53,374 nucleotides of DNA. It comes from a virus. Taxonomy: Duplodnaviria > Caudoviricetes. The notes below the pieces were generated by a model. That model made no database searches and was not told the DNA's origin. It was given only the letters and a program-made list of their open reading frames with translations. The stretch lies in IMG/VR virus record IMGVR_UViG_3300034994_000033, positions 1-53,374 of that record. One strand, written 5' to 3'. Position numbers and translations under genes: made by a program. Shown piece after piece: positions 1 through 53,374 of the stretch. Positions within the stretch are counted from its first letter, which is position 1. Each line of letters begins with the position of its first letter.

Positions 1-103
1 GTATGAGGGGCATATTTTCCACGAGGAAATGATCAAGAAGGGGTTTCAAGAAACCGCCGTGGACACCTGCCTATTTCTGATAAATAAGCCCCTATGGGCA
101 TAA
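1..103 (+). CDS. 3' end of a second copy of the small NPPY methyltransferase cassette gene (partial, spans contig junction)
   Basis: 1-104 is identical to 3095-3198; TAA at 101-103. Confidence 0.9.
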   Translation, partial: YEGHIFHEEMIKKGFQETAVDTCLFLINKPLWA

Positions 104-148
104 CGGCCAAAGGGTAAGCGGTGCAACCGCTTCACCCGATGGTTAGAT
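98..148 (-). mobile_element. attC: attC site (51 bp)
   Basis: + strand GCATAAC-GGCCAAAG-GGTAAGCGG..CCGCTT(C)ACC-CGATG-GTTAGAT: two core sites around an imperfect hairpin with an extrahelical base in the right arm. Confidence 0.9.
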
Positions 149-166
149 TACGAAAGGAGCGACAGC

Positions 167-538
167 ATGACAGACGAGCAAACATATTTCCGAGCGTTGC
201 AGAAAATTCAGAACGGTTGCTACTGCTACACCCTTGCACAGATAAAGGCAATCGTTGATGACGCATTAAACCCTGTGCCGCAATATGAGGATGTAGAGGT
301 TGTCAGGTTTGAGTGCCTGACTTGTGGATTCATTGAGGTCGAAGACTGCACATCTCCAAACGAGTGTTGCCGGAATGATGCACGAATTACACTGAAAGGC
401 TCATATAGCGTGAGGAAAAAGCCCAAAGAGTTTCGCCGTGAAGAAATCGCATTTGATATGAATTTCATTGAGGCTCTTGTATGTGGCGGTAAACGTATCC
501 CGCTATCGGCTAAATATTACGCAGAGTGGGCAGAGTAA
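167..538 (+). CDS. Cassette gene, hypothetical Cys-rich (CxxC...CC) protein
   Basis: AAGGAG RBS; cassette ends GTTAGATTAC (142-151) and GTAATCTAAC (535-544) are perfect 10-bp complements. Confidence 0.8.
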   Translation: MTDEQTYFRALQKIQNGCYCYTLAQIKAIVDDALNPVPQYEDVEVVRFECLTCGFIEVEDCTSPNECCRNDARITLKGSYSVRKKPKEFRREEIAFDMNFIEALVCGGKRIPLSAKYYAEWAE

Positions 539-600
539 TCTAACGGGTCTGTGGCTGACCCGCCGGGGTTCATCGGGCGGTGTCCGGCCACTGGTTAGCG
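538..600 (-). mobile_element. attC: attC site (63 bp)
   Basis: ATCTAAC...GGCTGACCCGCC..GGCGG(T)GTC(C)GGCC..GTTAGCG; two unpaired bases in the right arm. Confidence 0.9.
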
Positions 601-628
601 ATATTTCAGCAAAATCAAGGAGATAATC

Positions 629-898
629 ATGCAACCTCGTAGACTGTACTGGACAAGCATTGCCACTTTTGACGAGAAAAACGAGCCGGGACACACTGAT
701 TACGTTCGCCGCGAAGTGCGCTCACGGCTGAAAGATTTGATTGCCGACGAATCAATCAAGATTGCCACTCGTGATCGGGATCATGACGGATGCAGAGAGT
801 TTACGGCTTCGCTGTATGTTCTGACTGATACCGAGATGAAAGAGTTTGTTGATTACATAAACCGTCAAGCGTGTAAGGGATTGCCGGTCATTTTGTAG
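629..898 (+). CDS. Cassette gene, hypothetical protein
   Basis: AAGGAG RBS; cassette ends GTTAGCGATA (594-603) and TATCGCTAAC (899-908) are perfect complements. Confidence 0.8.
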   Translation: MQPRRLYWTSIATFDEKNEPGHTDYVRREVRSRLKDLIADESIKIATRDRDHDGCREFTASLYVLTDTEMKEFVDYINRQACKGLPVIL

Positions 899-901
899 TA
901 T

Positions 902-959
902 CGCTAACGGGTAGCCGATGACCGGACGGCTTTTGTTCCGGTCGATGGGCGGGTTATGC
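902..959 (-). mobile_element. attC: attC site (58 bp)
   Basis: CGCTAAC...ATGACCGGA..TCCGGTC(G)AT..GTTATGC; extrahelical G in the right arm. Confidence 0.9.
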
Positions 960-987
960 CCGTCAATTATTCATCATGGAGGAAGTT

Positions 988-1209
988 ATGTCAAAATCAA
1001 AAGCTCCCGCAATACACGTCGGAAATATTATCAACGCGGCAACTCGTAACGAACTCACGGAATATGTGAAAGACATATTTACTGCTGGCAGAGAGACTGA
1101 CCAATCTGGCGCAACAATACGCCACGCGCTCTCAATGTTTTCTGAATGCCAAGAAGTAAAAAATCTCTCAATTTCAAATTGCAACTTCACGAACGGGGTT
1201 AAGGCATGA
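988..1209 (+). CDS. Cassette gene, hypothetical protein (first of two in this cassette)
   Basis: GGAGG RBS before ATG 988 (ORF track starts at 976); ATGA overlap with the next ORF. Confidence 0.7.
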   Translation: MSKSKAPAIHVGNIINAATRNELTEYVKDIFTAGRETDQSGATIRHALSMFSECQEVKNLSISNCNFTNGVKA

Positions 1210-1400
1210 ATACCAATTCAAAAACAACATATATCCTGCTAGATCGGGGGACAGAGGATAAGGAGTTGTTGGGAGACATCAACCGGATATTTTCAGACCT
1301 TGGCGAACCATCCATTAAAAATATTGCAGTACGGTACCCAAAGCTATTGGAGTTCAAGCAATATTTACAAGATGAAGTGGAAATGGAAGCATCCGCATAA
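1206..1400 (+). CDS. Cassette gene, hypothetical protein
   Basis: Translationally coupled to the previous ORF; stop TAA lies in core site GCATAAC. Confidence 0.7.
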   Translation: MNTNSKTTYILLDRGTEDKELLGDINRIFSDLGEPSIKNIAVRYPKLLEFKQYLQDEVEMEASA

Positions 1401-1452
1401 CGGCTTGAGCTGACCAGACGGCTTTTCGGTCTGGTCGAGCGTTTGGTTATAA
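1395..1452 (-). mobile_element. attC: attC site (58 bp)
   Basis: GCATAAC-GGCTTGA-GCTGACCAGAC..GTCTGGTC(G)AGC-GTTTG-GTTATAA; textbook attC bottom-strand layout on the + strand. Confidence 0.95.
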
Positions 1453-1487
1453 TGCGTCTGGCTGGATAGCGAAAAGGAGGGTTAACC

Positions 1488-1673
1488 GTGGAATGCCCTA
1501 ATTGTTTCCCTGATACCACCAATGTTGGATGCCCTCTCTGTCGGGGAAATTACTTCTTTGATTCCTGTTGTGACGAAATACAAGATGACGATGACGGTTA
1601 CGAAGATGACGATGACGGTTACGACCTGAACGATTACGAAGAAGATTGCAGGGTCAACAGGGGGCAAGGATGA
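1488..1673 (+). CDS. Cassette gene, small Cys-rich protein with acidic Asp/Tyr repeat tail
   Basis: AAGGAGG RBS, GTG start; CPNC/CPLC motifs; 21-bp tandem repeat at 1582-1624 encodes DDDDGY twice. Confidence 0.7.
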   Translation: MECPNCFPDTTNVGCPLCRGNYFFDSCCDEIQDDDDGYEDDDDGYDLNDYEEDCRVNRGQG

Positions 1674-1951
1674 ACTTAAAGGAACAGGCGGAGCAATTTG
1701 CAGGGTCTTACACCCACCGACCAGCTGAAGCTTGTGTTCTGGTAAGGGAACTTCTGAATGAGATATTAAATCTTGAAACGGACTTGGCAAGCAAGAAAGC
1801 CGTTATCGCTGAACAGGCGGGCGTCCGCAAAAAGACCGCGATTGAGGCAATCGGTATTGTTCAAGAGTGGCGCAACAGCAACAAGCTGATTGACAAGCTG
1901 GTGCATACATTCGGTGTTTACGATGACATTTACGGCAAGAAGGAAGCATAA
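1670..1951 (+). CDS. Cassette gene, hypothetical helical protein
   Basis: ATGA overlap with the previous ORF; in frame with track ORF 1646..1951. Confidence 0.7.
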   Translation: MNLKEQAEQFAGSYTHRPAEACVLVRELLNEILNLETDLASKKAVIAEQAGVRKKTAIEAIGIVQEWRNSNKLIDKLVHTFGVYDDIYGKKEA

Positions 1952-1952
1952 A

Positions 1953-2615
1953 GTGGAAAAAGTTATTATCGGAAATGCAACTCTGTTCAAGGGAAACTGC
2001 ATGGCTGGACTGATTGACGCGGCTGATGGACAATTCAGCCTTGCAATAGTTGACCCGCCGTATGGTTTGGGAAAAAAGATCACGGCAGGCGGCACATGGA
2101 GCGCAAAACATGCCAAGGCAAACCCTCAAGGCTTTGAATGGGATGTTGCACCGACTTTCGAGTATTTCCACCGGCTAAAAAGAGTGACTACAAATCAAAT
2201 AATTTGGGGCGCAAATTACTTCGCGATGCCGCCGTGTAGAGGCTTCATCGTCTGGGACAAGGGAGTTTTATTCGGATCAGGGCAAACGTTCGCAGAGGGT
2301 GAATACGCTTGGACGAGTTTTGACCGTAATGCCAAAATCACAAGGGTTATGCCGCTTATGGGTTTTCTTTGCAGAGGCGTGGAAGAACGCATACACCCGA
2401 CACAAAAGCCGGTTTCACTGTATCGGTGGTTGTTGGCAAACTATGCAATAGCAGGAGATACGATACTTGACACGCACATGGGCAGCGGAAGCAGCGTGAT
2501 TGCCTGTCTTGACGCTGGGCTGGCCATCACCGCCTACGAAGCGAATCAAGAATATTTCGATTTGGCTTGTGAAAGAATAGAGAGATCACAGCAACAAATG
2601 AAATTAGCATTATAA
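1953..2615 (+). CDS. Cassette gene, N6-adenine/N4-cytosine DNA methyltransferase (beta class)
   Basis: DPPY catalytic motif, HPTQKP, LDTHMGSGS SAM motif; GTG start just after the previous stop. Cassette ends GTTATAATGC (1446-1455) and GCATTATAAC (2607-2616) are complementary. Confidence 0.9.
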   Translation: MEKVIIGNATLFKGNCMAGLIDAADGQFSLAIVDPPYGLGKKITAGGTWSAKHAKANPQGFEWDVAPTFEYFHRLKRVTTNQIIWGANYFAMPPCRGFIVWDKGVLFGSGQTFAEGEYAWTSFDRNAKITRVMPLMGFLCRGVEERIHPTQKPVSLYRWLLANYAIAGDTILDTHMGSGSSVIACLDAGLAITAYEANQEYFDLACERIERSQQQMKLAL

Positions 2616-2667
2616 CGGAGGAGATAAGCAGTGAGCGAAGCGAATCTGATTGATCGTATTGTTATGC
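2610..2667 (-). mobile_element. attC: attC site (58 bp), identical from TAAC onward to the site at 53245-53302
   Basis: TTATAAC-GGAGGA-GATAAGCAG..GCGAAGC..CTGATT(G)ATC-GTATT-GTTATGC. Confidence 0.9.
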
Positions 2668-3197
2668 CGGTTGTCGATCTGAATATGCTCCGGGCATACA
2701 AGAAAAAATTCAACTTCTTCGAGACCCCGGAAGTGTTAGCCGACCAAATGGCTGGCTTTTTGGATGGACTGGGCCGCAATGCCCGAATATTGGAGCCATC
2801 CGCTGGAATGGGGGCACTGATACGGGCAATTGAAAGGGCGATGCTGTTTCTGCCGCAGATTGATTACTGCGAGATACAAGAAGAATTTGCAGCCATTCTT
2901 TCCACGTATAACCGCGTCGGTTCTGATTTTATGCAATACAAGCCGGGGCCGGTATATGACGCCGTGATTATAAATCCGCCGTACAAAAACAAGCTGGCCG
3001 AACTGCACGTAGACCATGCCTGGAATTGCATAAAGCCGGGCGGCTGGATCGTGGCACTTGTAGGAAAAACGGCGGGAAGCTACATAGGCTCAGAGTATGA
3101 GGGGCATATTTTCCACGAGGAAATGATCAAGAAGGGGTTTCAAGAAACCGCCGTGGACACCTGCCTATTTCTGATAAATAAGCCCCTATGGGCATAA
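2631..3197 (+). CDS. Cassette gene, small SAM-dependent amino-methyltransferase (gamma-type order), probably acting on DNA
   Basis: FFETP, ILEPSAGMGAL (motif I), INPPY (motif IV); stop TAA in core site GCATAAC. Confidence 0.85.
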   Translation: MSEANLIDRIVMPVVDLNMLRAYKKKFNFFETPEVLADQMAGFLDGLGRNARILEPSAGMGALIRAIERAMLFLPQIDYCEIQEEFAAILSTYNRVGSDFMQYKPGPVYDAVIINPPYKNKLAELHVDHAWNCIKPGGWIVALVGKTAGSYIGSEYEGHIFHEEMIKKGFQETAVDTCLFLINKPLWA

Positions 3198-3229
3198 CTT
3201 CTGATTATGCAGCCTTCTGGCGGGATAAC
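3192..3229 (-). mobile_element. attI: attI-like primary recombination site
   Basis: Minus strand GCATAAT-CAGAA-GTTATGC (L box, 5-bp spacer, GTTRRRY-type R box); extra GTTATCC direct repeat at 3223-3229; sits between the array and the intI start and has no attC stem. Confidence 0.8.
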
Positions 3230-3256
3230 GGGAAAAACTTTTGAAAGGAGAAAACC

Positions 3257-4420
3257 ATGCAACCTACTAAAATCAGAACACAATACACCTTTGCTCAACG
3301 TGATAATGAAATCCTGAAAAGCCCCCGTGTTGCTGGCTGGCTCTCTGATCTCCAAAAAGAATTTGCCGTCCACCACACCGACCCAAAAACCCAGAAATCC
3401 TACCGCCGAGTGATCATCCGCTTTATCCTCTGGAAAATCAAAGGCCAGTGCATGGATGATTTTGATACCGCCATGCGTAATTATCTGACCATGCGGGCGG
3501 ATAAAGATCAAATTGCCGCCAGTACCCAGAATGTTGATTTCAACGCCCTGCTGTTTTTCTGCCGGCACGTCCTGAAAAAAGAGCTCGGTAAGATCGATGC
3601 CGCCCGGGCCAAGCGGTCACAACACCTCTACGTGATCCTGTCGCGGGAAGAAGTCCGATCGATCATCGCGGCATCCACCGACGTCTACAAACTCATCAAC
3701 TCCCTGATGTACGGCTGCGGCCTCCGGGTAGAAGTCGATTGCCTGGAAATCAGGGTGAAAGATGTTGATCTTGCCCGTGGCAAGCTGGATATCCGTGATA
3801 GTAAGCACGGCAGCGCCCGTGAATTGGATATTCCTCTGGCGTGTGTCGATTTCCTTCGACTCCAGATAGAAGCCTGCAAGCGCGTTCATGATGCCGATCT
3901 GGCCGCCGGCTTCGGCGAGGTGGATCTGCCTGGTGCTTATGGCCGAAAAAATCCCGGCGCCTCCAAGGATTTTGGCTGGCAATATCTGTTTTTTGCTCAG
4001 TCGAGATGGGTCAACAAGGACGGCAGACAAGGCCGGCCACATATCCACGTTTCAGCGGTTCAGGACGCGTTCAAGATGGTCCGTAAATCACTCAGTATCT
4101 ACAAACCAGCCACTCCACACTGTATGCGTCATTCTTATGCAACACACATGTTGGAGGATGGTGTGGATATTCGTAAACTACAAAAGTTACTTGGTCACCG
4201 GAAAGTCGAGACAACGGAAGTCTACACACAGTTTACTCAGGGTGCGGGCATCCGCAGCCCGCTGGACCGTATTCTTGGTATTGCAGGAGATCTGTTACCG
4301 GTAAACGTTGGCGCGGATGTTCGGCGGTGGCTCGTGTCTTTTGCCTCAAAACTAAACATCACACAAGAAGAAGCCGCCGCACAGGTTCTGTCAATGGCTG
4401 CTCATGGGGGCATCCTGTGA
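3257..4420 (+). CDS. intI: Integron integrase (IntI family tyrosine recombinase) with C-terminal extension
   Basis: AASTQNVDFNALLFF, RAKRSQHLYVILSREEV, MYGCGLR, IntI-specific insertion DLAAGFGEVDLPGAYGRKNPGASKDFGWQYLF, HCMRHSYATH, LLGH..TTEVY, GIRSPLD. Catalytic R-K-H-R-H-Y residues appear intact. Confidence 0.95.
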   Translation: MQPTKIRTQYTFAQRDNEILKSPRVAGWLSDLQKEFAVHHTDPKTQKSYRRVIIRFILWKIKGQCMDDFDTAMRNYLTMRADKDQIAASTQNVDFNALLFFCRHVLKKELGKIDAARAKRSQHLYVILSREEVRSIIAASTDVYKLINSLMYGCGLRVEVDCLEIRVKDVDLARGKLDIRDSKHGSARELDIPLACVDFLRLQIEACKRVHDADLAAGFGEVDLPGAYGRKNPGASKDFGWQYLFFAQSRWVNKDGRQGRPHIHVSAVQDAFKMVRKSLSIYKPATPHCMRHSYATHMLEDGVDIRKLQKLLGHRKVETTEVYTQFTQGAGIRSPLDRILGIAGDLLPVNVGADVRRWLVSFASKLNITQEEAAAQVLSMAAHGGIL

Positions 4421-4689
4421 ATCAAGACCACCTTTATCAATTTCCCGCTACCCGTTTTGTCTCAAATTCTCTCTGGTGTCAATGGTGGCATTTATTATCT
4501 GAAGTTCTTGAAATCGGCTGGGAGTTGCTGGTCGGCAATCTGCAGCGGGCCGCAAATGAGTCGTGGGATGCCAGTCAGAGCAACGAAACGTTGCGGAGGA
4601 TCCTGTCCGGCCAGGGGGCGGATATTGAAATGGCACGGGAACAGGTTGTCAAGGGTTGTCAAGAGCGCGGGTATTATCAGGCGTTATAG
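4417..4689 (+). CDS. Small helical protein, possibly MazG-like NTP pyrophosphohydrolase
   Basis: GTGA overlap with the intI stop; SEVLE...NESWD acidic pattern and ERGYY C-terminus. Confidence 0.45.
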   Translation: MNQDHLYQFPATRFVSNSLWCQWWHLLSEVLEIGWELLVGNLQRAANESWDASQSNETLRRILSGQGADIEMAREQVVKGCQERGYYQAL

Positions 4690-4723
4690 GTTGTAGCATA
4701 CTCCACTGCCGAGGTTCTTTTTA

Positions 4724-5644
4724 ATGGAATGGTTTAGATGGTATGGCGGGACGTTCAATGATCCGAAATTGCAGTGGGTAGCCAGTAAGTCGTGCCAGAC
4801 GGTGGCGTCGGTTCTGGCGGTATGGGTGGCTGTCCTGGAGCGGGCCAACGGTAACGAGCTCCGAGGCTGCTGCGCCGGTCTTGATTTTGAGTCGTTGGAT
4901 ATTGCCCTCGGCCTGGAGGATGGTGCTACGTGCGATATTTATCAAACGATGACGCGCAAGGCGATGATTATCGAGGGTGATATGGTTGCCGCCTGGGACA
5001 AGCGCCAACCAAAACGGGAGGACGAAACAGCGGCGGAGCGAAAGAAAACGTATAGGGATAGAGTGAAGTTGGAGAATGAAAACGAGCAGTTACGTGCTCA
5101 ATTACTTTCGCTGCAGTCCCACAATGTCCCACAATGTCCCACAATGTCCCATGATGTCACAACAGAGGAGAGGAGAGTAGAAGAGAAGAGAGAAGAAGAA
5201 CCTTTAAAAACACAACAGCAACACGCGAGCGCGGTTGAACAATTGGCCGAGGCGGTTGAAGAGCACCAGCAGGATCTGCTGCGGCTGTTCCCTGAGATCG
5301 ATATTCCGGTGGCGCTGGCGAAGCTGTTGCATCATTTCAGAACCAGCGAACGGCTGATTGATCCGTGGATGATAGCGCTAAAATGGTTTCAGAGGGAGTT
5401 CAAAGCATCTGCTCCACAAGCTACGGCACGGGCCTCTCCGGCAGGGCAGAAAAGCAAAGGCGTTTTGAGGGAAGAAGCGGCTATTCAAGCGGCTCGGGAA
5501 ACAATGGAGCTACTGGAGGATATGCGGAATGGAACGAAACAAACAGGTACAGGTGTTGACGTTGTTGCTGGAAATGACAGTCGCTCTCGGGATAGAACCG
5601 CTTTCAGCCAAACGCCAAGCGCTGTATCTGAGGCATTTGGCTAA
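4724..5644 (+). CDS. Phage replication initiator (O-like replisome organiser)
   Basis: N-terminal WFRWY..NDPK, WDKRQ, RKKTYR helix; internal iteron-like repeats. Confidence 0.8.
   Translation: MEWFRWYGGTFNDPKLQWVASKSCQTVASVLAVWVAVLERANGNELRGCCAGLDFESLDIALGLEDGATCDIYQTMTRKAMIIEGDMVAAWDKRQPKREDETAAERKKTYRDRVKLENENEQLRAQLLSLQSHNVPQCPTMSHDVTTEERRVEEKREEEPLKTQQQHASAVEQLAEAVEEHQQDLLRLFPEIDIPVALAKLLHHFRTSERLIDPWMIALKWFQREFKASAPQATARASPAGQKSKGVLREEAAIQAARETMELLEDMRNGTKQTGTGVDVVAGNDSRSRDRTAFSQTPSAVSEAFG
5116..5200 (+). repeat. Putative replication origin: 10-bp iteron-like repeats followed by a purine tract
   Basis: GTCCCACAAT x3, then GTCCCATGAT and GTCACAAC, then an almost all-purine run, in the middle of the initiator gene as in lambdoid ori. 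Confidence 0.65.
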
Positions 5645-5951
5645 TTGGCCGGTCGAGGCTTTGCGTTGGGCGTGCGACCGGGCGGTACAGGAATGTCGTT
5701 ATCAGGTCATGCCGGTCCCTGGGGTGTTGATCGATTATGCCCGTGCAGCACCTCGCCGGCAGGTATGCGGTGATTTGAAGCGCACGGCATTGGATCATAC
5801 GACCAGCTACAACGAAAAGTTGGCAGAGGAATCGATAAACGCGGTTATGGCGTTGTTTACTGATGATTTTGACCGTAAGGGCATGCCGCCGGTTGTTAAA
5901 ACTCCGAGTGCGGCGGAGCAGCGAGTAGCGTTGATGGCAACTGGGTTTTAA
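5529..5951 (+). CDS. Replication accessory protein (helicase-loader position)
   Basis: GGAGG upstream; overlaps the initiator 3' end; assignment is mainly positional. Confidence 0.5.
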   Translation: MERNKQVQVLTLLLEMTVALGIEPLSAKRQALYLRHLANWPVEALRWACDRAVQECRYQVMPVPGVLIDYARAAPRRQVCGDLKRTALDHTTSYNEKLAEESINAVMALFTDDFDRKGMPPVVKTPSAAEQRVALMATGF

Positions 5952-5971
5952 TTTTATGCTGGAGGTGACGT

Positions 5972-6193
5972 GTGGGAGGTGTGACTGCAGGAGAACGGAC
6001 GGCCCTTTTGGTTGATGAGGTTCGGTGTTGTTTGTGGTGTGACGCTACTCTGGTACAGAAAGAAGGGGAGACAAAGGATAATTTCAAAAAGAGGAGGTAT
6101 TGCGATAAACGCCACAAGAGCTTGCACCAGGGGGAACTGAGAGGCCGGCAGAAGAGGCATGTGAACTGCTCATTGTCGTCAGCAAGCGTATAA
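5972..6193 (+). CDS. Small Zn-finger-like protein
   Basis: GGAGGTG RBS; CLWC...YCDKRH; last gene of the early operon. Confidence 0.6.
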   Translation: MGGVTAGERTALLVDEVRCCLWCDATLVQKEGETKDNFKKRRYCDKRHKSLHQGELRGRQKRHVNCSLSSASV

Positions 6194-6197
6194 ACCG

Positions 6198-6224
6198 AAA
6201 GGCCGGGGAAACCCGGTCTTTTTT
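6198..6224 (+). terminator. Rho-independent terminator ending the early operon
   Basis: GGCCGGG-GAAA-CCCGGTC followed by TTTTTT. Confidence 0.85.
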
Positions 6225-6263
6225 GTGTTCATTATCATAGTGAATTTTTTTGTTGCGTATTCG

Positions 6264-6289
6264 TTTATGTTGCGGTAGCCCTGAAATAT
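6264..6289 (+). promoter_or_regulatory. Late-promoter motif copy 1
   Basis: TTTATGTTGCGGTA, also at 24364 and 39455, each at a late module start. Confidence 0.65.
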
Positions 6290-6944
6290 GGGAACTGCTA
6301 ACTCGACAAATTTTGAACAAACTGCCGCTACCGGCCAGATGGTGCTTCATGATTTTGAGGCAATCATCGGTTATGAGGCGGCTGTTCTTAAAAAACCGCG
6401 CAATGAGATGTTCTGTGTGGCTTTTGTCGAGAATGGTGGCCATGCTGGAAAGGCATACCAGGCGGCAATTAATCCAAAAACTACTGATAGCAATGCCCGC
6501 AAACGCGCTCATGAACTGTTGAAAAACAAGGACATATCAGGACGTATCGCTGAATTGTCTGCTGTTATCCGCAATAGAACAATTAATGACCTGATAGACT
6601 TTCGTATCAAGGGCATGAAGTTTGATCCCGCCAATTATTACGACTCCAGTTCTGGTATCAGAAGGCAATTGCATATCAGCGACGTTAAGGATGGCCACCG
6701 AATTGGTATAGGTCTGGAGTCTCGCATCGTTGATGGCGGTGTTGTGTATGTACCGGTATTCCCCTCCCCTGAAAAATCTGCTGATGCACTGCAGAAGATG
6801 ATGGGACTCGATAAGTCGCTGGTGGAACTGGCTGGGAAGAACGGTGGGCCAATACAGACTGAAAGTGTGGTTGATGATATGGGCAGGCTGCAAAGTCTCA
6901 AGGAGAAAGCGCAGGCGTTAAAGAATGCCGGTATTATCTCCTGA
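6288..6944 (+). CDS. terS: Terminase small subunit
   Basis: AYQAA..ARKRAHELLKNKDI helix-turn-helix, ELAGKNGGPI motif; directly upstream of TerL. Confidence 0.85.
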   Translation: MGTANSTNFEQTAATGQMVLHDFEAIIGYEAAVLKKPRNEMFCVAFVENGGHAGKAYQAAINPKTTDSNARKRAHELLKNKDISGRIAELSAVIRNRTINDLIDFRIKGMKFDPANYYDSSSGIRRQLHISDVKDGHRIGIGLESRIVDGGVVYVPVFPSPEKSADALQKMMGLDKSLVELAGKNGGPIQTESVVDDMGRLQSLKEKAQALKNAGIIS

Positions 6945-8535
6945 ACATATTGCGGAACTTCAAGAAGCGTCGTTCTTTGAAATTGCGGATCTTTGGGCAG
7001 CTATCATCCACGAGCATGGTGATGCCGGTAAAGCCGAACTAGGTCAGGTAGATCGCTTCTATCTGCTGACTAATTTGTTGCACCGCCCTGATGCTTTTCA
7101 TCCTTGGCTGTATAAACGCTGCCGCGAGGTTGAAGCGGCCCCGGATGGTTTTCTGGATCTGTGGGCACGTGAACATTACAAGTCCACGATAATCACGTTT
7201 GCCGGAATTATTCAAGAGATCATCAAGGATAAGGAAATAACCGTCGGACTGTTGTCGCACTCAATGAAGCCGGCCAAGAAGTTCCTACAGATGATCAAGA
7301 CCGAGTTGGAAATCAACGAAGAACTTAAATCGTTGTACCCTGGCGTGTTTTGGCAGAATCCGGAACGCGATGCGCCTGCAGCTGGTAGACAGTGGAACTC
7401 TTTCAGGTTGGATGTGAACCGTGATAACAACCCGCGAGAGGGAACGTTGGAGTGTTCCGGGCTGGTCGATGGCCAGCCGACCGGTTCTCATTTTAGACTG
7501 CGAGTATATGACGATGTTGTTACTCGTGAAAGCGTTACCAGTTCGGAAATGATTGATAAGACCACAAGCGCCTGGGAGTTGTCTGATAACCTTGGCGCCC
7601 GGGGTGAGGATGGAAGGAGCAGAACTTGGCATATAGGCACTCGCTATCATTTTGCTGATACTTATCATCATATTCTGGAAAAGAAGTTGCTTAAGCCCCG
7701 TTTACATCCGGCTACTGATAATGGCCGGATAGATGGAAAGTCGGTTTTTCTGCCGCCGGAAGTGCTCAAAGACAAGATCATCCGGCAGGGTACGAACTTT
7801 CCGGCGCAGATGTTACAGAATCCGGCTGCCGGCAAGAATGCGACGTTTCAGAAGGATTGGCTCAAGTTTACCGATATCAGGCCCGGAACTATCAATGTGT
7901 ATATCATGGGAGATCCGGCCAGCAGCAAGAAGAAGGGGAGCGATAGTACTGCTATTCCGGTGATTGCAGTTGATGCTGCCCGTAACAAGTATTTGATTGA
8001 TGGCATGTGCCACAAGATGAATCTACGGGAACGGTGGTTGGCAATACGTGATTTGCGTCGCAAGTGGCGGAGTCAGCCGGGGGTGCAAACCGTCGAAGTT
8101 GGTTATGAGAAGTATGGTATGCAGTCGGATCTGGATTATTTTCAGGAGCAGATGGAGGCCGACCAGGATGTTTTTGATATCAAGGAACTGAACTGGACCC
8201 GCGACGGTACGACCAGTAAAGAGGATAGAGTGCAACGCCTGGTGCCGGACTTCCTGAAAGGGCAGTTTTATTTGACGGCGGTAACTCCCTCGGAAACATC
8301 GAATCAAAAGAGGGTGAGAGAAGATGGGCAGCCGTACCGTATTTTGCAGCCGGTTAAGCGCAAAGATCATGAGGGGAATTTGTATTCACTCAACAAGCAG
8401 TTTTTGGATGAATTTCTGTTTTTCCCGTTTGCTGTGCATGATGATTTGATAGATGGTTGTAGCAGGTTATACGACATGGACTATAAGCCGCCGATCATTT
8501 ATGACGAGCAGATGCTGGAACCGGAGGTGGAATGA
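6925..8535 (+). CDS. terL: Terminase large subunit
   Basis: REHYKST Walker A variant, VYDDVV Walker B, GTRY, GDPA..DS and HDDLID nuclease motifs. Confidence 0.92.
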   Translation: MPVLSPEHIAELQEASFFEIADLWAAIIHEHGDAGKAELGQVDRFYLLTNLLHRPDAFHPWLYKRCREVEAAPDGFLDLWAREHYKSTIITFAGIIQEIIKDKEITVGLLSHSMKPAKKFLQMIKTELEINEELKSLYPGVFWQNPERDAPAAGRQWNSFRLDVNRDNNPREGTLECSGLVDGQPTGSHFRLRVYDDVVTRESVTSSEMIDKTTSAWELSDNLGARGEDGRSRTWHIGTRYHFADTYHHILEKKLLKPRLHPATDNGRIDGKSVFLPPEVLKDKIIRQGTNFPAQMLQNPAAGKNATFQKDWLKFTDIRPGTINVYIMGDPASSKKKGSDSTAIPVIAVDAARNKYLIDGMCHKMNLRERWLAIRDLRRKWRSQPGVQTVEVGYEKYGMQSDLDYFQEQMEADQDVFDIKELNWTRDGTTSKEDRVQRLVPDFLKGQFYLTAVTPSETSNQKRVREDGQPYRILQPVKRKDHEGNLYSLNKQFLDEFLFFPFAVHDDLIDGCSRLYDMDYKPPIIYDEQMLEPEVE

Positions 8536-8672: not shown

Positions 8673-8806
8673 CGGATAGCGGCAATTACGAATATGACCG
8701 TCTACCTGAGTCGATCAAGGCTGTATATTCCCTGAAAGAATGGCTGTGGCTGTCTGCCAGGGAAAAACAAACGTTGGAGCAGCGCGAAACTGAACCGGAG
8801 TGTTGA
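8669..8806 (+). CDS. Small hypothetical protein (45 aa)
   Basis: ATGA overlap; MTDSGNYEYDRLPESIKAVYSLKEWLWL... Confidence 0.55.
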   Translation: MTDSGNYEYDRLPESIKAVYSLKEWLWLSAREKQTLEQRETEPEC

Positions 8807-8808
8807 CG

Positions 8809-9186
8809 ATGAATATTATTTGCAGAGACGATGCACCGACGTTTGACCGCGAGGTAGAGCCGCTTGTTATTGTTGATCCGCTGGATCAGGCGATATGCGA
8901 GCAAGTTGCCTGCACGCTGCTGCGGCATTACGGCGGCTATGACTGGCTGGTTGAGGCGGATTATCGCAAGGGTTTTATCGATATTCGCAACGTGTCGCTG
9001 GATGGCCAGATGGGGTGCAGGATTCCGATGAACGGCTATGCATCGTCCTCGGAGCTGGACAAGATTGCCATGCGTTATGGTGGCGAAATCCTGGAGCGGT
9101 TCGGTTTGGTACGCGGGGCAAAACGGGTGGACGATGTTGAGAATTTGACTCAAGACTTTGCCGGCAGGCTGGAGTACGACAAATGA
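8809..9186 (+). CDS. Hypothetical protein upstream of portal
   Basis: GGAG RBS; ATGA overlap with the portal gene. Confidence 0.7.
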   Translation: MNIICRDDAPTFDREVEPLVIVDPLDQAICEQVACTLLRHYGGYDWLVEADYRKGFIDIRNVSLDGQMGCRIPMNGYASSSELDKIAMRYGGEILERFGLVRGAKRVDDVENLTQDFAGRLEYDK

Positions 9187-28187: not shown

Positions 28188-28205
28188 TTGTCAAAGGGGA
28201 GTCTC

Positions 28206-50610: not shown

Positions 50611-50726
50611 TTGGATCAATATTGTGTCGTGACCATCAAGCCTGCGGAACGCCACCGTGGAAGGAAGCGTAAACCGAGGACGACACTTTTTAATTGAGGC
50701 CGCATAAACAAACGGAGGCGACGATA

Positions 50727-51494
50727 ATGGCAAAAACAGCAGTTGAGGCACCACGTACCAATGCCTGGCTTTTTGACCCAGAGCATCTAAGGCTTGTAAT
50801 GGATGAAAAACATCCTCTCTACGATCCGCGTGTCCACCTCCCGACAGATGAAGCCATGATTAGAAACATCATGGTCAACGGTGTGATTGAGCCCGTAATA
50901 ATTGCCAAGGAGGGCCAGGACGTTGTGGTTGTCGATGGTAGACAGCGTACCAAGAACGCTATTGAGGCTAACAAGCGCCTGACAGCTGAAGGTAAGGAGC
51001 CGGTAAAAGTTACTTGCATTATCCGGCGGGGCGATGACGCAAGCCTGTTCGGGGTACTAATATCTGCCAACGAGAACAGACAAGATGATACGCCTCTCGG
51101 TAAAGCCGACAAGTTGTCCCGGTACTTGGCAATGGGCCGGACTGAGGAACAGGCCGCGATAGCCTTTGGTGTTTCCACCGTCACTATCAAGACCTGGCTT
51201 GTAATGCTCACTCTTTCTGACAAGGTAAAGCAGGCGGTTGATGGCGGTGTCATATCTGCCACAGCCGCCGTGAAACTTGCCGATCTACCAAGGCCAGAAC
51301 AGGAAACCGCTTTGAATTCTCTTATTGAGTCAGGGGGCAGAACCTCTGGACGCAATGTCGAGAAGGTCAAAAACGGTAATCGACCTTCGCTTGCAAAAAT
51401 GAAGTCCAGGAAGGCCGTTGAACTGAAGTTGGCTGAAGAAGGGCTCCATACAGAGTTTATTGCGGCATTGAAGTGGGTACTGGGCTTGCGATAA
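50727..51494 (+). CDS. ParB/Srx N-terminal domain protein with HTH
   Basis: NGVIEPV, VVVDGRQR, ANENRQDD, EEQAAIAFGVS; stop TAA lies in the distal attC core. Confidence 0.85.
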   Translation: MAKTAVEAPRTNAWLFDPEHLRLVMDEKHPLYDPRVHLPTDEAMIRNIMVNGVIEPVIIAKEGQDVVVVDGRQRTKNAIEANKRLTAEGKEPVKVTCIIRRGDDASLFGVLISANENRQDDTPLGKADKLSRYLAMGRTEEQAAIAFGVSTVTIKTWLVMLTLSDKVKQAVDGGVISATAAVKLADLPRPEQETALNSLIESGGRTSGRNVEKVKNGNRPSLAKMKSRKAVELKLAEEGLHTEFIAALKWVLGLR

Positions 51495-51539
51495 CGGCTA
51501 GAGGATGACGGGCTTGCCCCGTCCAGCCGATTGTTATCC
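51489..51539 (-). mobile_element. attC: attC site (51 bp), distal end of the array
   Basis: CGATAAC-GGCTAGAG-GATGACGGG..CCCGTC(C)AGC-CGATT-GTTATCC. Confidence 0.85.
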
Positions 51540-51573
51540 TTCGGGGTGGCAATCGAGACAAAGGAGCGGCAAA

Positions 51574-51939
51574 ATGTTAAACGTGAATGATTCCAGTATG
51601 GCGGCAAATGCAATCTGTCACGCTGCCGAAATGACCCGCGAAACGATCAGAATGGCAGTCTACGAGTACGAACGTCCGTCAACGGTACACAAACCCCGTC
51701 TTTTCATTGATGGCGATCATTGGTGTGCTCTCTTCGGTGAGAATTTACAGGACGGTGTTGCAGGATTCGGGGTGTCTCCTTCGGCGGCAATGAACGATTT
51801 TGACAACAACTGGTGTAGGCCGCTACCGCCCAAAATGAGCGGTATTCCCGGCATGACTCAAAAGGATTTCGAAACCGTCGTGGCAGAAGAACAACGGATA
51901 ATTGACCGGGAAAATTTGGAGAAGCTGAAAGAAGGATAA
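51574..51939 (+). CDS. Cassette gene, hypothetical protein with HicB-like segment
   Basis: AAGGAG RBS; DGDHWCALFG..GVAGFGVSPSAAM; cassette ends GTTATCCTTC and GAAGGATAAC are perfect 10-bp complements. Confidence 0.75.
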   Translation: MLNVNDSSMAANAICHAAEMTRETIRMAVYEYERPSTVHKPRLFIDGDHWCALFGENLQDGVAGFGVSPSAAMNDFDNNWCRPLPPKMSGIPGMTQKDFETVVAEEQRIIDRENLEKLKEG

Positions 51940-51986
51940 CGGCCTTGGCAATCAGCGGGTTCACCGCTGGATTGACTTGGTTAAAC
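51934..51986 (-). mobile_element. attC: attC site (53 bp)
   Basis: GGATAAC..CAATCAGCGG..CCGCTG(G)ATTG..GTTAAAC. Confidence 0.9.
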
Positions 51987-52005: not shown

Positions 52006-52257
52006 ATGTCACACGGATGCTCAAGCCGATCAATAACCAGTATGGAACAGTTTGGACAGTTGAGCGGCGAACCCCAAACCAGCTCCGAGCGTATGCACAG
52101 GGCTGAGGCATTAGCAAACCATTATCGCAATGCACTGAAATTAATTGCAGATTCTGATATTACTCCAGAGATTGCAAAACAGATTTCCGATGGGGTCTCC
52201 GTAGACCGAATTTATGAAAATATCGCATACGAGGCGCTGCAACTAGAGTCGGTTTAA
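52006..52257 (+). CDS. Cassette gene, hypothetical protein
   Basis: AAGGAG RBS; ends GTTAAACC and GGTTTAAC are complementary; stop in the core site. Confidence 0.75.
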   Translation: MSHGCSSRSITSMEQFGQLSGEPQTSSERMHRAEALANHYRNALKLIADSDITPEIAKQISDGVSVDRIYENIAYEALQLESV

Positions 52258-52320
52258 CGGGGCGGCGGATGAGCAGCTGTCCCGCGAAGCGGGGTGACTG
52301 TCTCTATCCGTTGGTTCGAC
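52252..52320 (-). mobile_element. attC: attC site (69 bp)
   Basis: GTTTAAC..CGGATGAGCAG..GCGAAGC..CTGTCTC(T)ATCCG-TTG-GTTCGAC. Confidence 0.85.
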
Positions 52321-52435
52321 GCCCCGGAGGGGCGCTCGCAACCAATGTAAGCAAGTGGGGGTGGGGTCGATTCGGAACCTCGCCGCTTTTGACTCAAAAC
52401 AGTTTGTTGGCCGGAACGGCCATAAGGGGGTTGGT

Positions 52436-52684
52436 GTGAAACCTAGATTGAAATGTGATAATTGCGATTGGACTCAACAGACTGAATCATGCAAAGAAGC
52501 GGCAACTTGGCTGAATAAGCAGTGCCCTGCTTGTGGCAAGTGTGAAATTGTATCTATGGCGGATTTAATGGTACTGGCACAAATCCAGGGGTTAGAAGAT
52601 TTTGGCCTTGCTGGAGAGTCTGACTCTGTTTTGGATGGAGAATCGGTACGGTATGAAATTGATACTGCCGTGCTCCGTGGTTGA
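52436..52684 (+). CDS. Cassette gene, zinc-ribbon protein
   Basis: AAGGGGG RBS, GTG start; CDNC, CPAC. Confidence 0.7.
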   Translation: MKPRLKCDNCDWTQQTESCKEAATWLNKQCPACGKCEIVSMADLMVLAQIQGLEDFGLAGESDSVLDGESVRYEIDTAVLRG

Positions 52685-52730
52685 TTTTGTCGGGCAACGC
52701 CCGTGGCGAGGTTTTGAATCGGCCTTAAAT

Positions 52731-52754
52731 CAGCTGCTCATCCGCCGCCCCGTT
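52731..52754 (+). repeat. Inverted 24-bp copy of one arm of attC 52252-52320
   Basis: CAGCTGCTCATCCGCCGCCCCGTT is the exact reverse complement of 52256-52279. Confidence 0.95.
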
Positions 52755-52771
52755 CGTTGCCCCGCAGGGGC

Positions 52772-52834
52772 GACGAACGCTGTAGCGTGACCAGCGGCGG
52801 GTTTTAGCCGACTGGTCCACAGCGTTGGTTAGGG
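52772..52834 (-). mobile_element. attC: attC site (63 bp)
   Basis: GACGAAC..GTGACCAGCGGC..GCCG(A)CTGGTC(C)AC..GTTAGGG. Confidence 0.85.
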
Positions 52835-52844
52835 CGGGTTTTCG

Positions 52845-53213
52845 ATGCCATTTATGACAAAAGAACAAATCAATTGGGCGTGTGACACCATCGGGGATCT
52901 TCTCCGGGAATGGAAGCGCCTGCATGTTGAAAACGAATCCCTGAAAAGGGAAATACAGCAGTTGAGGAGCAAAACAATGATGCGAGCAAAAATGAAAGTG
53001 GCAAGAGTCGAAAACAAAGGGGCACACGAGAAACTTGATTTTTCGGCTGTCTGCAAAAACGATGGATATCCGGCAGACGGTAGCGACGAAAACAACACAT
53101 TTGCAATGTGGACACCTTCCGCCGAACTTTCCATGACCATCAACAATCCGGCACTGATCGGCAAGTTCTCCGTTGGTCAAGAGTTCTATCTTGATTTCAC
53201 TCTGGCAGAGTAG
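52845..53213 (+). CDS. Cassette gene, hypothetical phage protein (possible internal start at 52977)
   Basis: Cassette ends GTTAGGGCG and CGCCCTAAC are complementary; GAGGAG RBS before MMRAKMKV. Confidence 0.7.
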   Translation: MPFMTKEQINWACDTIGDLLREWKRLHVENESLKREIQQLRSKTMMRAKMKVARVENKGAHEKLDFSAVCKNDGYPADGSDENNTFAMWTPSAELSMTINNPALIGKFSVGQEFYLDFTLAE

Positions 53214-53244: not shown

Positions 53245-53302
53245 CCCTAACGGAGGAGATAAGCAGTGAGCGAAGCGAATCTGATTGATCGTATTGTTAT
53301 GC
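53245..53302 (-). mobile_element. attC: attC site (58 bp), duplicate of 2610-2667
   Basis: CCCTAAC, then identical to 2617-2667. Confidence 0.9.
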
Positions 53303-53374
53303 CGGTTGTCGATCTGAATATGCTCCGGGCATACAAGAAAAAATTCAACTTCTTCGAGACCCCGGAAGTGTTAG
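53266..53374 (+). CDS. 5' end of the second copy of the NPPY methyltransferase (partial)
   Basis: 53248-53374 is identical to 2613-2739. Confidence 0.9.
   Translation, partial: MSEANLIDRIVMPVVDLNMLRAYKKKFNFFETPEVL

What the first reader, a model, noticed from the sequence alone, without database searches (positions are those of the whole stretch)
98..4420. A complete phage-native integron (intI + attI + 10 attC) embedded in the early operon
Seen: an IntI with the integron-specific insertion and intact catalytic motifs, an attI-like site right before it, and ten attC hairpins (51489, 51934, 52252, 52772, 53245, 98, 538, 902, 1395, 2610) forming one array across the contig junction. For almost every cassette the two ends are exact 7-10 bp complements (e.g. 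GTTAGATTAC/GTAATCTAAC, GTTATCCTTC/GAAGGATAAC), as expected for units that once circularised. Known: integrons are bacterial chromosomal or transposon-borne platforms; in phages I know them mainly as class 1 resistance integrons carried as cargo. Here no transposon or resistance gene is present, the cargo looks phage-like, and intI is translationally coupled to the next gene and co-oriented with the replication genes. Inference: the phage has domesticated an integron to shuffle and acquire its early accessory genes.
Basis: partly seen in the sequence, partly recalled or inferred. Interest (0 to 1): 0.97.

Follow-up and report, generated by a model that had tools for sequence, protein, structure and literature searches.

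The report
Working integron inside a temperate phage
This near-complete temperate phage genome carries its own integron, a gene-capture device so far known mainly from bacteria, loaded with small phage genes including DNA methyltransferases, and near-identical relatives differ by whole cassettes cut exactly at the expected recombination points.

Summary
The core observation holds. ORF 3257-4420 is an integron-type integrase: NCBIfam TIGR02249 scores 266.6 bits against a cut-off of 265, and it aligns end to end with VchIntIA, including the IntI-specific insertion. Eight of the ten listed sites are attC-like hairpins. A covariance model trained only on relatives' sites finds them, all on the + strand (E 5e-10 to 0.33). 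The other two (53245, 2610) are one and the same weak site, belonging to a 582-bp methyltransferase cassette ("R") that is present twice.

The contig ends do not simply abut. Both lie inside R. R is bounded exactly at TAA|C on both sides. One copy sits next to a conserved attI-like junction just upstream of intI.

The + strand is the attC bottom strand, so the intI/attI/attC geometry is canonical. The cassette genes, however, lie on the bottom strand and are transcribed towards attI and intI.

The integrase belongs to a distinct clade of about 387 aa. In ten further distinct loci it sits in phage-like contexts, with variable cassettes. Two relatives that are 100% identical in their flanks differ by two attI-proximal cassettes and by a tandem cassette copy, with all junctions at AA|C.

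Verdict: a genuine integron resident in a phage lineage and probably recently active. It is a new variant of a known kind. No recombination experiment exists.

The parts
50694..51494 (+). ParB-like backbone gene. Its TAA stop (51492-51494) lies inside the AAC box of the outermost attC, so it marks the far end of the array.
   Evidence: Pfam HTH_ParB; phrog_1033 ParB-like, E 8e-40; sequence
51489..51539 (+). attC S1. The bottom strand is the + strand.
   Evidence: fold; model R2 36.6 bits, E 3.7e-7
51574..51939 (+). Cassette 1 ORF (cassette 51495-51939, 445 bp). No family found.
   Evidence: ORF and RBS; no Pfam hit for 51505-51939
51934..51986 (+). attC S2
   Evidence: R2 E 4.9e-4
52006..52257 (+). 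Cassette 2 ORF (cassette 318 bp), 83 aa. No family found.
52252..52320 (+). attC S3, with two bulged T on the 3' arm
   Evidence: R2 only 14.2 bits, E 0.33
52436..52684 (+). Cassette 3 ORF (cassette 520 bp). The cassette also holds a 24-nt perfect inverted repeat, 52256-52279 with 52731-52754.
52772..52834 (+). attC S4
   Evidence: R2 35.8 bits, E 5.9e-7 at 52776-52830
52845..53213 (+). Cassette 4 ORF, 122 aa (cassette 473 bp). A 48%-identical homologue lies inside a cassette of relative L011.
53248..53374 (+). 5' part of the inner copy of cassette R, identical to 2613-2739. Listed site 53245 belongs here.
   Evidence: the unitig joining the cassette-4 end to the R start in the source sample
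1..104 (+). 3' part of the inner copy of cassette R, identical to 3095-3198
   Evidence: unitig 75-2642
98..148 (+). attC S6
   Evidence: R2 45.9 bits, E 1.2e-9
167..538 (+). Cassette 6 ORF, 123 aa (cassette 440 bp). No family found.
538..600 (+). attC S7
   Evidence: R2 E 2.4e-3
629..898 (+). Cassette 7 ORF, 89 aa (cassette 364 bp)
902..959 (+). attC S8
   Evidence: R2 42.6 bits, E 9.3e-9
988..1400 (+). Cassette 8 (493 bp) with two overlapping small ORFs, 988-1209 and 1206-1400
1395..1452 (+). attC S9
   Evidence: R2 47.2 bits, E 5.3e-10
1488..2615 (+). Cassette 9 (1215 bp) with three ORFs: 1488-1673, 1670-1951, and 1953-2615, an N6/N4 DNA methyltransferase
   Evidence: Pfam N6_N4_Mtase; phrog_67, E 7.5e-35
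2610..2668 (+). Weak attC of cassette R. It overlaps the RBS and the first codons of its ORF. Stem of 8 pairs with one mismatch and a bulged G on the 3' arm.
   Evidence: fold -2.7 kcal/mol; R2 10.3 bits, E 3.5, at 2610-2667; pairing read by eye
2616..3197 (+). attI-proximal copy of cassette R (582 bp). ORF 2631-3197 is a DNA-methyltransferase-like protein.
   Evidence: PHROG methyltransferase families; exact repeat bounded at TAAC; single 586-nt unitig at depth 31.7
3198..3256 (+). attI-like region. The junction AA|C is followed by a motif conserved in relatives, and a second ..ATAAC box lies about 30 nt further on.
   Evidence: alignment by eye of the window, L001-L005, L009 and L011; same geometry as the attI1 junction on the intI1-sense strand of a class 1 integron
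3257..4420 (+). intI, an integron-type tyrosine recombinase with a clade-specific C-terminal extension of about 48 aa
4417..4689 (+). Conserved 90-aa gene whose start overlaps the intI stop. Possibly MazG-like (weak evidence).
   Evidence: present after intI in 10 of 11 distinct close-clade loci; no Pfam or PHROG hit; AF2 pLDDT 67.9, and the Foldseek top hits are MazG at E>1

Best explanation
A genuine integron is a resident module of this temperate phage lineage. It consists of the IntI recombinase, an attI site immediately upstream of intI, and ten attC-bounded cassettes, one of them present twice.

The + strand carries the attC bottom strands. The geometry of intI, attI and attC is therefore the canonical one. 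IntI would cut folded bottom-strand hairpins between the second A and the C of the 5' AAC box, and would insert excised circles at attI. Unlike the class 1 paradigm, every cassette gene lies on the bottom strand. Each has its own ribosome-binding site after the hairpin, and its TAA stop lies inside the AAC box. The array is thus read in the same direction as intI and the flanking phage genes, presumably by read-through from an upstream phage promoter, and new cassettes land at the promoter-distal end, just before intI.

The cargo includes DNA methyltransferases and, in relatives, a NADAR protein. It is most likely counter-defence and other accessory genes.

Shown here: IntI family membership, the structure, strand and clustering of the attC sites, the conserved attI junction, variable cassettes in relatives, and cassette gains, losses and duplications with junctions exactly at AA|C.

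Inferred: that this IntI catalyses those events, how the array is transcribed, and what the cargo does.
For: 1. IntI. TIGR02249 scores above its cut-off. The protein aligns full length with VchIntIA, including the insertion. The residues I read as the RKHRHY set (motif recalled) are R157, K183, R291, H314 and Y323, invariant across 36 clade members, and H288, nearly invariant.

2. attC sites. There are eight hairpins of 51-69 nt with AAC/GTT boxes. Model R2, trained on 6 sites from relatives only, recovers them on the + strand only. In 12 related loci all 33 hits at E<=1 lie on the intI strand.

3. Strand, from three lines.
(a) Of 20 sites, 16 have more unpaired stem bases on the 3' arm, 3 on the 5' arm, and 1 has equal numbers. 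In a real class 1 integron oriented with intI1 on +, the dfr attC likewise has its extra bases on the 3' arm. Nivina 2016 places the extrahelical bases near L'' and the AAC in R' of the bottom strand (passages).
(b) The duplicated cassette R is bounded at TAAC on both sides.
(c) attI and intI lie on the side expected for that polarity, and the junction AA|C plus a conserved motif recurs in 7 relatives.

4. Recent cassette movement.
- R sits both at attI and inside the array, with identical sequence: one 586-nt unitig in the source sample.
- In an independent sediment sample, a 300-nt unitig joins the R end directly to the R start.
- L086 and L089 are 100% identical over 6105 + 1338 nt. L086 has two extra cassettes (1202 nt) exactly between an AAC box and the attI junction, and L089 has a tandem copy of a 275-nt cassette.

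5. Phage residence. The window is a virus record, 99% complete, with phage structural genes. The roughly 387-aa IntI clade is monophyletic (SH-aLRT 99, quick tree). It is followed by the same 90-aa gene in 10 of 11 distinct loci.

6. Cargo. Methyltransferases occur in window cassettes 9 and R and in L005 and L086 cassettes. A NADAR domain occurs in the attI-proximal cassette of L004.
Against: - No recombination assay exists, and no reads were seen, only Logan contigs.
- The TIGR02249 score is only 1.6 bits above its cut-off.
- IntegronFinder's general attC model and its intI_Cterm profile were not available. My model is clade-specific: it finds none of the true class 1 attC sites in L085. It therefore shows a coherent site family, not membership of the curated attC model.
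- Site 52252 scores only E 0.33, and R's own site is at noise level, although R is the cassette that appears to have moved.
- No sigma-70-like promoter stood out near attI or upstream. Counts were at or below those of the shuffles.
- The R-end to R-start joint rests on one unitig with only 23+7 letters on its short side.
- The depth figures (11.5, 31.7, 18.9) are per-contig k-mer means, which the tool warns are not copy numbers.
- Closure of the genome across R is inferred.
- L004 gave no model hit at E<=1.
Confidence: 0.8

Rival explanations
1. Relic array. The cassettes were assembled by integron activity in the past, or by a host integrase. The phage's own IntI is now inactive or does another job, such as dimer resolution. 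Present-day differences arise by homologous recombination or by replication slippage at the short shared TAACGG boxes.
For: No activity data exist. R's own site folds weakly. Two direct 586-bp R copies would allow RecA-type loss of the block between them, which could explain the lower depth of 75-2642 in the source sample.
Against: Homologous exchange between R copies cannot produce an R-end to R-start joint, nor the tandem 275-nt cassette in L089. The two extra cassettes of L086 end exactly at the attI junction, where there is no long homology. The residues I read as catalytic (R157, K183, R291, H314, Y323) are invariant across 36 clade members, and H288 is nearly invariant.
Confidence: 0.1
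2. Passenger or artefact. The integron belongs to the bacterial host and was picked up at a prophage boundary, as in the Vibrio anguillarum phages of Qi et al. 2023. Alternatively, the contig is a chimeric assembly.
For: Published 'complete integrons' in phage records are of this kind (PMC9892861, section 3 part 1). The contig is broken inside a repeat. Relative L004 is a provirus cut from a 201-kb contig.
Against: Phage genes flank the module on both sides in a record that is 99% complete. A single 16.5-kb unitig runs from R through intI into the phage genes. The same intI, partner gene and neighbours occur in several diverged phage-like contigs, at 50-68% IntI identity. The phage has its own separate integrase far from the array.
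Confidence: 0.04
3. Not an integron. The hairpins are intergenic terminators, RNA-processing sites or REP-like repeats of an early operon, and the recombinase is a Xer-like enzyme with an unrelated role.
For: The hairpins sit between co-directional genes and would also fold in the mRNA. Rfam finds nothing. The family score is close to its cut-off.
Against: The hairpins lack T-runs: the terminator scan does not pick them out, apart from one partial overlap at 944-964. Each unit has 7-10 nt complementary ends. The sites are strand-asymmetric, with 3'-arm bulges. Unit-level insertions and deletions end at AA|C. The recombinase carries the IntI insertion, and Xer proteins of 14 control genomes stay below the cut-off.
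Confidence: 0.03

Closest known systems
Canonical bacterial integrons (class 1; Vibrio chromosomal integron with VchIntIA, PDB 2A3V)
   Same: An IntI with the family-specific insertion. attI at the 5' side of intI. attC hairpins with AAC/GTT boxes, an unpaired spacer and extra bases on the 3' arm of the bottom strand. Crossover at AA|C. Cassette ends complementary to each other. The same intI/attI/attC polarity as the class 1 integron examined in L085.
   Different: The platform sits in a phage genome. All cassette genes are on the attC bottom strand and are co-directional with intI; in L085 the dfr gene is on the opposite strand. No Pc-type promoter was detected. IntI has a C-terminal extension of about 48 aa and a conserved 90-aa downstream partner. 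Relative L086 has a second array downstream of intI.
'Reverse' or inverted-integrase integrons of Treponema
   Same: intI and the cassette genes are transcribed in the same direction (passages of PMC3607928 and PMC4909258; bioRxiv 030866).
   Different: [quoted passage not shown] Here intI is transcribed away from attI, lies behind the cassettes, and is opposite to the attC top strands. It is the cassette genes that are flipped, not the integrase.
Integrons and attC clusters reported in phage genomes (Qi et al. 2023, PMC9892861)
   Same: Integron parts in phage records. DNA methyltransferase genes among the cassette cargo of phage attC clusters (section 3 part 1).
   Different: That screen of 10,705 genomes reports 3 complete integrons and one In0. 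They are a fragment of the host Vibrio chromosomal integron, a class 1 mosaic in P1, and one in an inactive Shewanella prophage. The lytic-phage cases lack intI. The IntIs of those records are only 33-35% identical to this one. Here a distinct IntI clade is syntenic across several phages. I read only part 1 of 3 of the results, and no supplements.
Sedentary chromosomal integrons as banks of anti-phage defence cassettes (bioRxiv 10.1101/2024.07.02.601686)
   Same: The idea of an integron as a store of conflict genes.
   Different: Those are on the bacterial side and hold defence systems. Here the platform is on the phage side and the cargo looks like counter-defence (methyltransferases, NADAR). 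I saw only the search listing and the start of the abstract.

Membership tests
Integron | Integron integrase: a tyrosine recombinase with the IntI-specific additional domain | tested here: met
   TIGR02249 at 266.6 / 267.1 bits against a cut-off of 265. Unbroken alignment through the insertion with VchIntIA 2A3V. IntegronFinder's own intI_Cterm profile was not available.
Integron | Catalytic RKHRHY residues of tyrosine recombinases (motif recalled) | tested here: met
   R157, K183, R291, H314 and Y323 are invariant, and H288 nearly invariant, in 36 clade members. The assignment to the motif is my reading.
Integron | Clustered attC sites: imperfect hairpins with AAC/GTT boxes, an unpaired spacer and extrahelical bases on one arm | tested here: met
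   Eight sites. Relatives-only model R2 gives E 5e-10 to 0.33, + strand only. The 3'-arm excess holds in 16 of 20 sites.
Integron | Match to the curated general attC covariance model (IntegronFinder) | not testable with these tools
   The model is not in Rfam (0 Rfam hits). My clade-specific model misses the true class 1 attC sites in L085.
Integron | attI site adjacent to the 5' end of intI, where cassettes are inserted | tested here: met
   A conserved junction AA|C plus motif lies 58 nt before the intI start in the window, and at the same place in 7 relatives. The L086/L089 difference lies exactly there. Binding and recombination were not tested.
Integron | Cassettes as discrete mobile units with complementary ends and crossover in the conserved triplet | tested here: met
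   Complementary runs of 5-10 nt. R is duplicated with TAAC bounds. There is an R-R joint, and a cassette insertion/deletion and a tandem copy at AA|C.
Integron | Pc promoter in intI/attI driving cassette genes away from intI | tested here: not met
   No sigma-70-like site near attI. The cassette genes point toward intI. The scan covers only one promoter type, and the host is unknown.
Inverted-integrase ('reverse') integrons | [quoted passage not shown] | tested here: not met
   The attC top strands are on the - strand and intI is on the + strand. attI lies upstream of intI.
MazG-like NTP pyrophosphohydrolase (for the 90-aa partner gene) | All-alpha fold with EXXE...EXXD metal-binding motifs (recalled) | tested here: inconclusive
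   E-V-x-E and E-T-W-D are conserved. There is no Pfam hit. The model has pLDDT 67.9. The Foldseek top hits are MazG (1vmg, 2yxh) but at E 3.2.

The most novel reading that the evidence does not exclude
A whole lineage of temperate phages maintains its own, currently active integron as an exchange platform for counter-defence genes (DNA methyltransferases, NADAR and many unknowns). The lineage comprises eleven distinct loci here, and 78 close IntI relatives in public protein data.

The system has been rebuilt for phage life. The cassette genes are flipped onto the recombinogenic bottom strand, so the array is expressed by read-through of a phage operon into intI, and the folding strand is the non-template strand. 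IntI has gained a C-terminal domain and a fixed small partner protein. Arrays can seed at several places in one genome. This would be the viral mirror image of bacterial integrons as defence banks.
Probability: 0.4. Interest if true: 0.9.

Novelty: new variant of a known kind. Interest (0 to 1): 0.8.

Why it matters
Integrons are textbook bacterial gene-capture devices. In the one dedicated survey I could read (PMC9892861), the complete integrons in phage records were host fragments or class 1 passengers. My phrase searches found no description of an integron lineage that belongs to phages.

Here the integrase clade, its partner gene, the attI junction and the site family travel together through diverged phage genomes. 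Near-identical genomes differ by whole cassettes at the attI end. That pattern would make phages users of integron-style gene sampling, not merely carriers.

It offers a concrete mechanism for the fast turnover of small early or accessory genes. It provides a ready list of candidate anti-defence genes, since each is delimited by attC sites. It also gives a natural test of how attC strand choice relates to transcription, because here the coding polarity is inverted relative to the paradigm.

Tried and rejected
- Rfam at gathering thresholds gave 0 hits in the window. attC is not an Rfam family, so this says nothing.
- A MAFFT alignment of 10 relatives' sites misaligned the stems and was not used for a model. 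I instead seeded a model with three equal-length sites and rebuilt it from relatives only.
- My first chain-walking script took wrong left ends for R in the window and for L002. Those chains were then read by eye.
- Summed unpaired bases per arm (53 against 65) are dominated by three large internal loops, so I report per-site counts instead.
- The sigma-70 promoter and terminator scans gave counts at or below those of the shuffles, so no promoter is claimed.
- Pfam and PHROGs gave nothing for cassette ORFs 1, 2, 3, 6, 7, 8a, 8b and 9b. ORFs 4 and 9a gave only weak sub-threshold hits.
- Virus Rctr41k is the best GenBank phage hit to IntI, at 35.7%. It gave no hit to the clade-specific site model, which is not informative about whether it has attC sites.
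- Sample X3 holds 100%-identical pieces of several cassettes and of rep, but nothing on intI, at depth 2-3.7. That cover is too low for any conclusion.
- In X1 the short unitig joining the cassette-4 end to R has depth 12.3 against 18.9 for the backbone.
- The careful tree search did not finish in 300 s. The quick tree is reported, and two rows with stops (L088, L023) were dropped from it.
- Complex prediction was not used, and I make no binding claim for IntI and the 90-aa protein.
- Supplements of PMC9892861 (tables of phage attC clusters) were not seen and may list further phages.

Full report
WHAT THE WINDOW IS. The window is a whole IMG/VR virus record of 53,374 bases, classed linear, with a CheckV completeness of 99%. 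PHROGs name terminase small and large subunits, portal, major head protein, an internal virion protein and a tail fibre. A ParB-like gene lies at 50694-51494, and a conventional tyrosine integrase on the - strand at 42233-43165. This is therefore a temperate tailed phage, and the recombinase under study is an extra one.

THE INTEGRASE. ORF 3257-4420 (387 aa) matches Pfam Phage_integrase and the SAM-like N-terminal domain. It matches NCBIfam TIGR02249 'integron integrase' over model positions 2-315 of 315, at 266.6 bits against a curated cut-off of 265. A six-frame search gives 267.1 bits. In 14 control genomes the same model 'rings' but never passes the cut-off. Against solved structures the best hit is the Vibrio integron integrase 2A3V (E 3e-44). 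The alignment runs from query 39 to 339 without a break through the stretch that is specific to integron integrases. Residues 340-387 have no counterpart in 2A3V. They are conserved in the close relatives.

THE SITES.
- Eight of them (51489, 51934, 52252, 52772, 98, 538, 902, 1395) are followed by a hairpin and a GTT box, for a total of 51-69 nt.
- A crude scan for TAAC-hairpin-GTT found 9 places on the + strand of the whole window, 7 in the array and 2 elsewhere. On the - strand it found only the array sites again.
- For a formal test I seeded a covariance model with three equal-length sites. I used it to collect six sites from relatives only, rebuilt the model from those six, and searched both strands of the window with filters off.
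- Seven sites scored E 5e-10 to 2e-3 and the eighth (52252) E 0.33. The next hits were at E 2.7-7.8. No - strand hit appeared at E<=10.
- The remaining two listed sites, 53245 and 2610, are one and the same sequence. It folds weakly and scores 10.3 bits, E 3.5, at 2610-2667.

THE CONTIG ENDS AND CASSETTE R. Window 1-104 is identical to 3095-3198, and 53248-53374 is identical to 2613-2739. Both ends thus lie inside a second copy of the unit 2613-3198, which contains the methyltransferase-like ORF 2631-3197. The shared stretch begins at a TAAC and ends at a TAAC.
- In the probable source sample the Logan unitigs show the same graph. One is a 586-nt unitig, 2613-3198, at depth 31.7.
- A second unitig, 75-2642, has depth 11.5.
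- A third, 16.5 kb long and starting at 3169, has depth 18.9.
- A short unitig joins the end of cassette 4 to the start of R.
- I infer a closed genome of about 53.7 kb in the order cassettes 1-4, R, cassettes 6-9, R, attI, intI.
- The depths would fit a mixture in which roughly six genomes in ten carry the block 105-2612 plus the second R. The tool warns that such depths are not copy numbers, so this stays a suggestion.

POLARITY. Three lines agree that the + strand is the attC bottom strand.
- First, the bulges. Of 20 sites (8 from the window, 12 from relatives), 16 have more unpaired stem bases on the 3' arm, 3 on the 5' arm, and 1 has equal numbers. Nivina et al. 2016 state that on the bottom strand the AAC lies in R' and that the extrahelical bases lie near L'' (passages). 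I checked this on a real class 1 integron in phage P1 record MH445380, oriented with intI1 on +. The dfr attC there reads AAC...GTT with three extra bases on the 3' arm, and the aadA attC, read on its coding strand, has its extra bases on the 5' arm.
- Second, R is bounded at AA|C on both sides. That is where a bottom-strand crossover falls.
- Third, intI and a conserved junction (AA|C followed by a short motif containing TGA-T/A-T) lie on the side expected for that polarity. The junction recurs in L001-L005, L009, L011 and L086. It resembles the attI1 junction read on the intI1-sense strand.
- The platform geometry is therefore canonical, and it is not the Treponema 'reverse' type, in which intI points toward attI.
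- What is unusual is the coding polarity. Every cassette ORF is on the bottom strand, with a ribosome-binding site after the hairpin and a TAA stop inside the AAC box. The genes thus run toward attI and intI.
- No sigma-70-like promoter was detected near attI.

RELATIVES.
- A search of 5.8 billion proteins listed 78 relatives at 48-89% identity (P0002-P0079). Of these, 77 are 385-389 aa long, and some lie on contigs of 40-60 kb.
- In a quick tree this clade (35 rows) has SH-aLRT 99, and IntI1 lies in the other half of the tree.
- Ten further distinct loci were fetched: L001, L002, L003, L004, L005, L009, L011, L012, L020 and L086/L089.
- A conserved 88-90-aa gene follows intI in 10 of 11 distinct loci, counting the window. 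Replication, terS or portal homologues lie nearby in L001 and L002.
- The relatives-only model gave 33 hits at E<=1 in 12 loci, all on the intI strand. L086 has 8 sites upstream of intI. It has 5 more downstream, after a helicase gene whose stop also lies in an AAC box.
- A sister clade with IntI of about 345 aa (L013-L015) shows the same layout.
- Cassette content is not conserved. Of 12 window cassette ORFs, only the N6/N4 methyltransferase and ORF 52845-53213 have homologues in any of 96 loci, and those homologues sit in cassettes at other positions.
- Cargo in relatives includes further DNA methyltransferases, a NADAR-domain protein next to attI in L004, and a DnaB N-terminal domain protein.

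EVIDENCE OF RECENT CASSETTE MOVEMENT.
- The attI-proximal R and the inner R are identical. This is the pattern expected when a cassette is excised after replication and re-inserted at attI.
- In an independent sediment sample from another study, a 300-nt unitig joins the R end directly to the R start. That means a tandem copy or a circle. The short side is only 23 letters plus 7 shared ones, so this is a single weak observation.
- L086 and L089 are 100% identical over 6105 and 1338 nt. L086 has two extra cassettes (1202 nt, 8705-9906) lying exactly between the AAC box of the preceding cassette and the attI junction, whereas L089 joins those two points directly. L089 also carries a tandem copy of a 275-nt cassette.
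- All these junctions fall at AA|C. Homologous recombination between repeats could delete the block between the two R copies. It could not make end-to-start joints, or insertions at attI.

WHAT REMAINS OPEN.
- No experiment shows that this IntI is active.
- The general attC model and the intI_Cterm profile of IntegronFinder could not be run. My site model is clade-specific and misses the class 1 sites.
- The family score is barely above its cut-off.
- The transcription pattern is inferred.
- The 90-aa partner is only weakly MazG-like: it has conserved acidic motifs, pLDDT 67.9, and Foldseek top hits to MazG at E>1. I make no claim that it binds IntI.

LITERATURE. The one dedicated study I found (Qi et al. 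2023, PMC9892861; abstract, outline and part 1 of 3 of the results read) screened 10,705 phage genomes. It reports 3 complete integrons and one In0 element, all traceable to host or class 1 integrons, plus 17 attC clusters without an integrase. The IntIs of those records are 33-35% identical to this one. Searches for six phrases such as 'phage-encoded integron' gave one unrelated prophage paper. A search for papers that contain the title phrase of that study gave seven papers, none of which, by title and abstract start, describes a phage-resident integron lineage. I therefore rate this a new variant of a known kind, within the limits of those searches.

Noticed in passing
window 4417-4689; L001-L003, L005, L009, L011, L012, L020, L086 right after intI: A conserved gene of 88-90 aa starts at or within about 40 nt after the intI stop in 10 of 11 distinct close-clade loci. 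It has invariant E-V-x-E and E-x-x-D motifs. The fold model has three helices, and its nearest PDB folds are MazG pyrophosphohydrolases, but at E>1.
   Followed up: partly
window 4274-4417 (IntI residues 340-387): A C-terminal extension of about 48 aa is absent from VchIntIA and conserved across the 385-389-aa clade. It co-occurs with the 90-aa partner gene. Its function is unknown.
   Followed up: partly
window 52256-52279 and 52731-52754: A perfect 24-nt inverted repeat lies inside cassette 3. The 5' arm of attC S3 can pair with a distal stretch just upstream of the cassette's own AAC box. This alternative long hairpin would enclose that box. Further imperfect inverted repeats (52314-52333 with 52759-52778, and 52365-52384 with 52705-52724) are not in simple inverted order.
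   Followed up: no
L086 12828-15622 (and L089 4535-7329): A second array of at least five attC sites, with the same polarity, lies downstream of intI, the partner gene and a ResIII/Helicase_C gene. The helicase gene's stop lies in the first AAC box. One cassette there encodes a Dam-type methyltransferase.
   Followed up: partly
L004 8305-9171: The attI-proximal cassette of this provirus encodes a NADAR-domain protein (Pfam E 2.5e-27). From recalled knowledge, this family is linked to reversal of DNA ADP-ribosylation, so it is a plausible counter-defence gene.
   Followed up: no
window 42233-43165 (-): A separate conventional tyrosine integrase (phrog_1, PF00589) lies in a leftward module. The phage therefore has two tyrosine recombinases with presumably different jobs.
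   Followed up: no
window 28188-39440: A single ORF of 3750 aa lies on the + strand, after the structural genes. It was not examined.
   Followed up: no
runs X1 and X3 laid on window 1-7000: In X1 a 198-nt contig at depth 2.4 shares the S8-like site (906-943, 4 differences) but has different sequence before it. This suggests related attC sites in another element of the same sample. X3 holds 100%-identical pieces of cassettes 6-9, R and rep, but none of intI, at low depth.
   Followed up: no
L100 (KX853513, Virus Rctr41k) 4680-5678: A deposited phage genome annotates as 'xerD' a protein 35.7% identical to this IntI over 81% of its length. Two methyltransferase-like genes lie downstream. My clade-specific site model found nothing there, and it is not among the phages named in the part of Qi et al. 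that I read.
   Followed up: partly
Integron-type integrases are therefore common in contigs classed as viral. How many are truly phage-borne was not examined.
   Followed up: no
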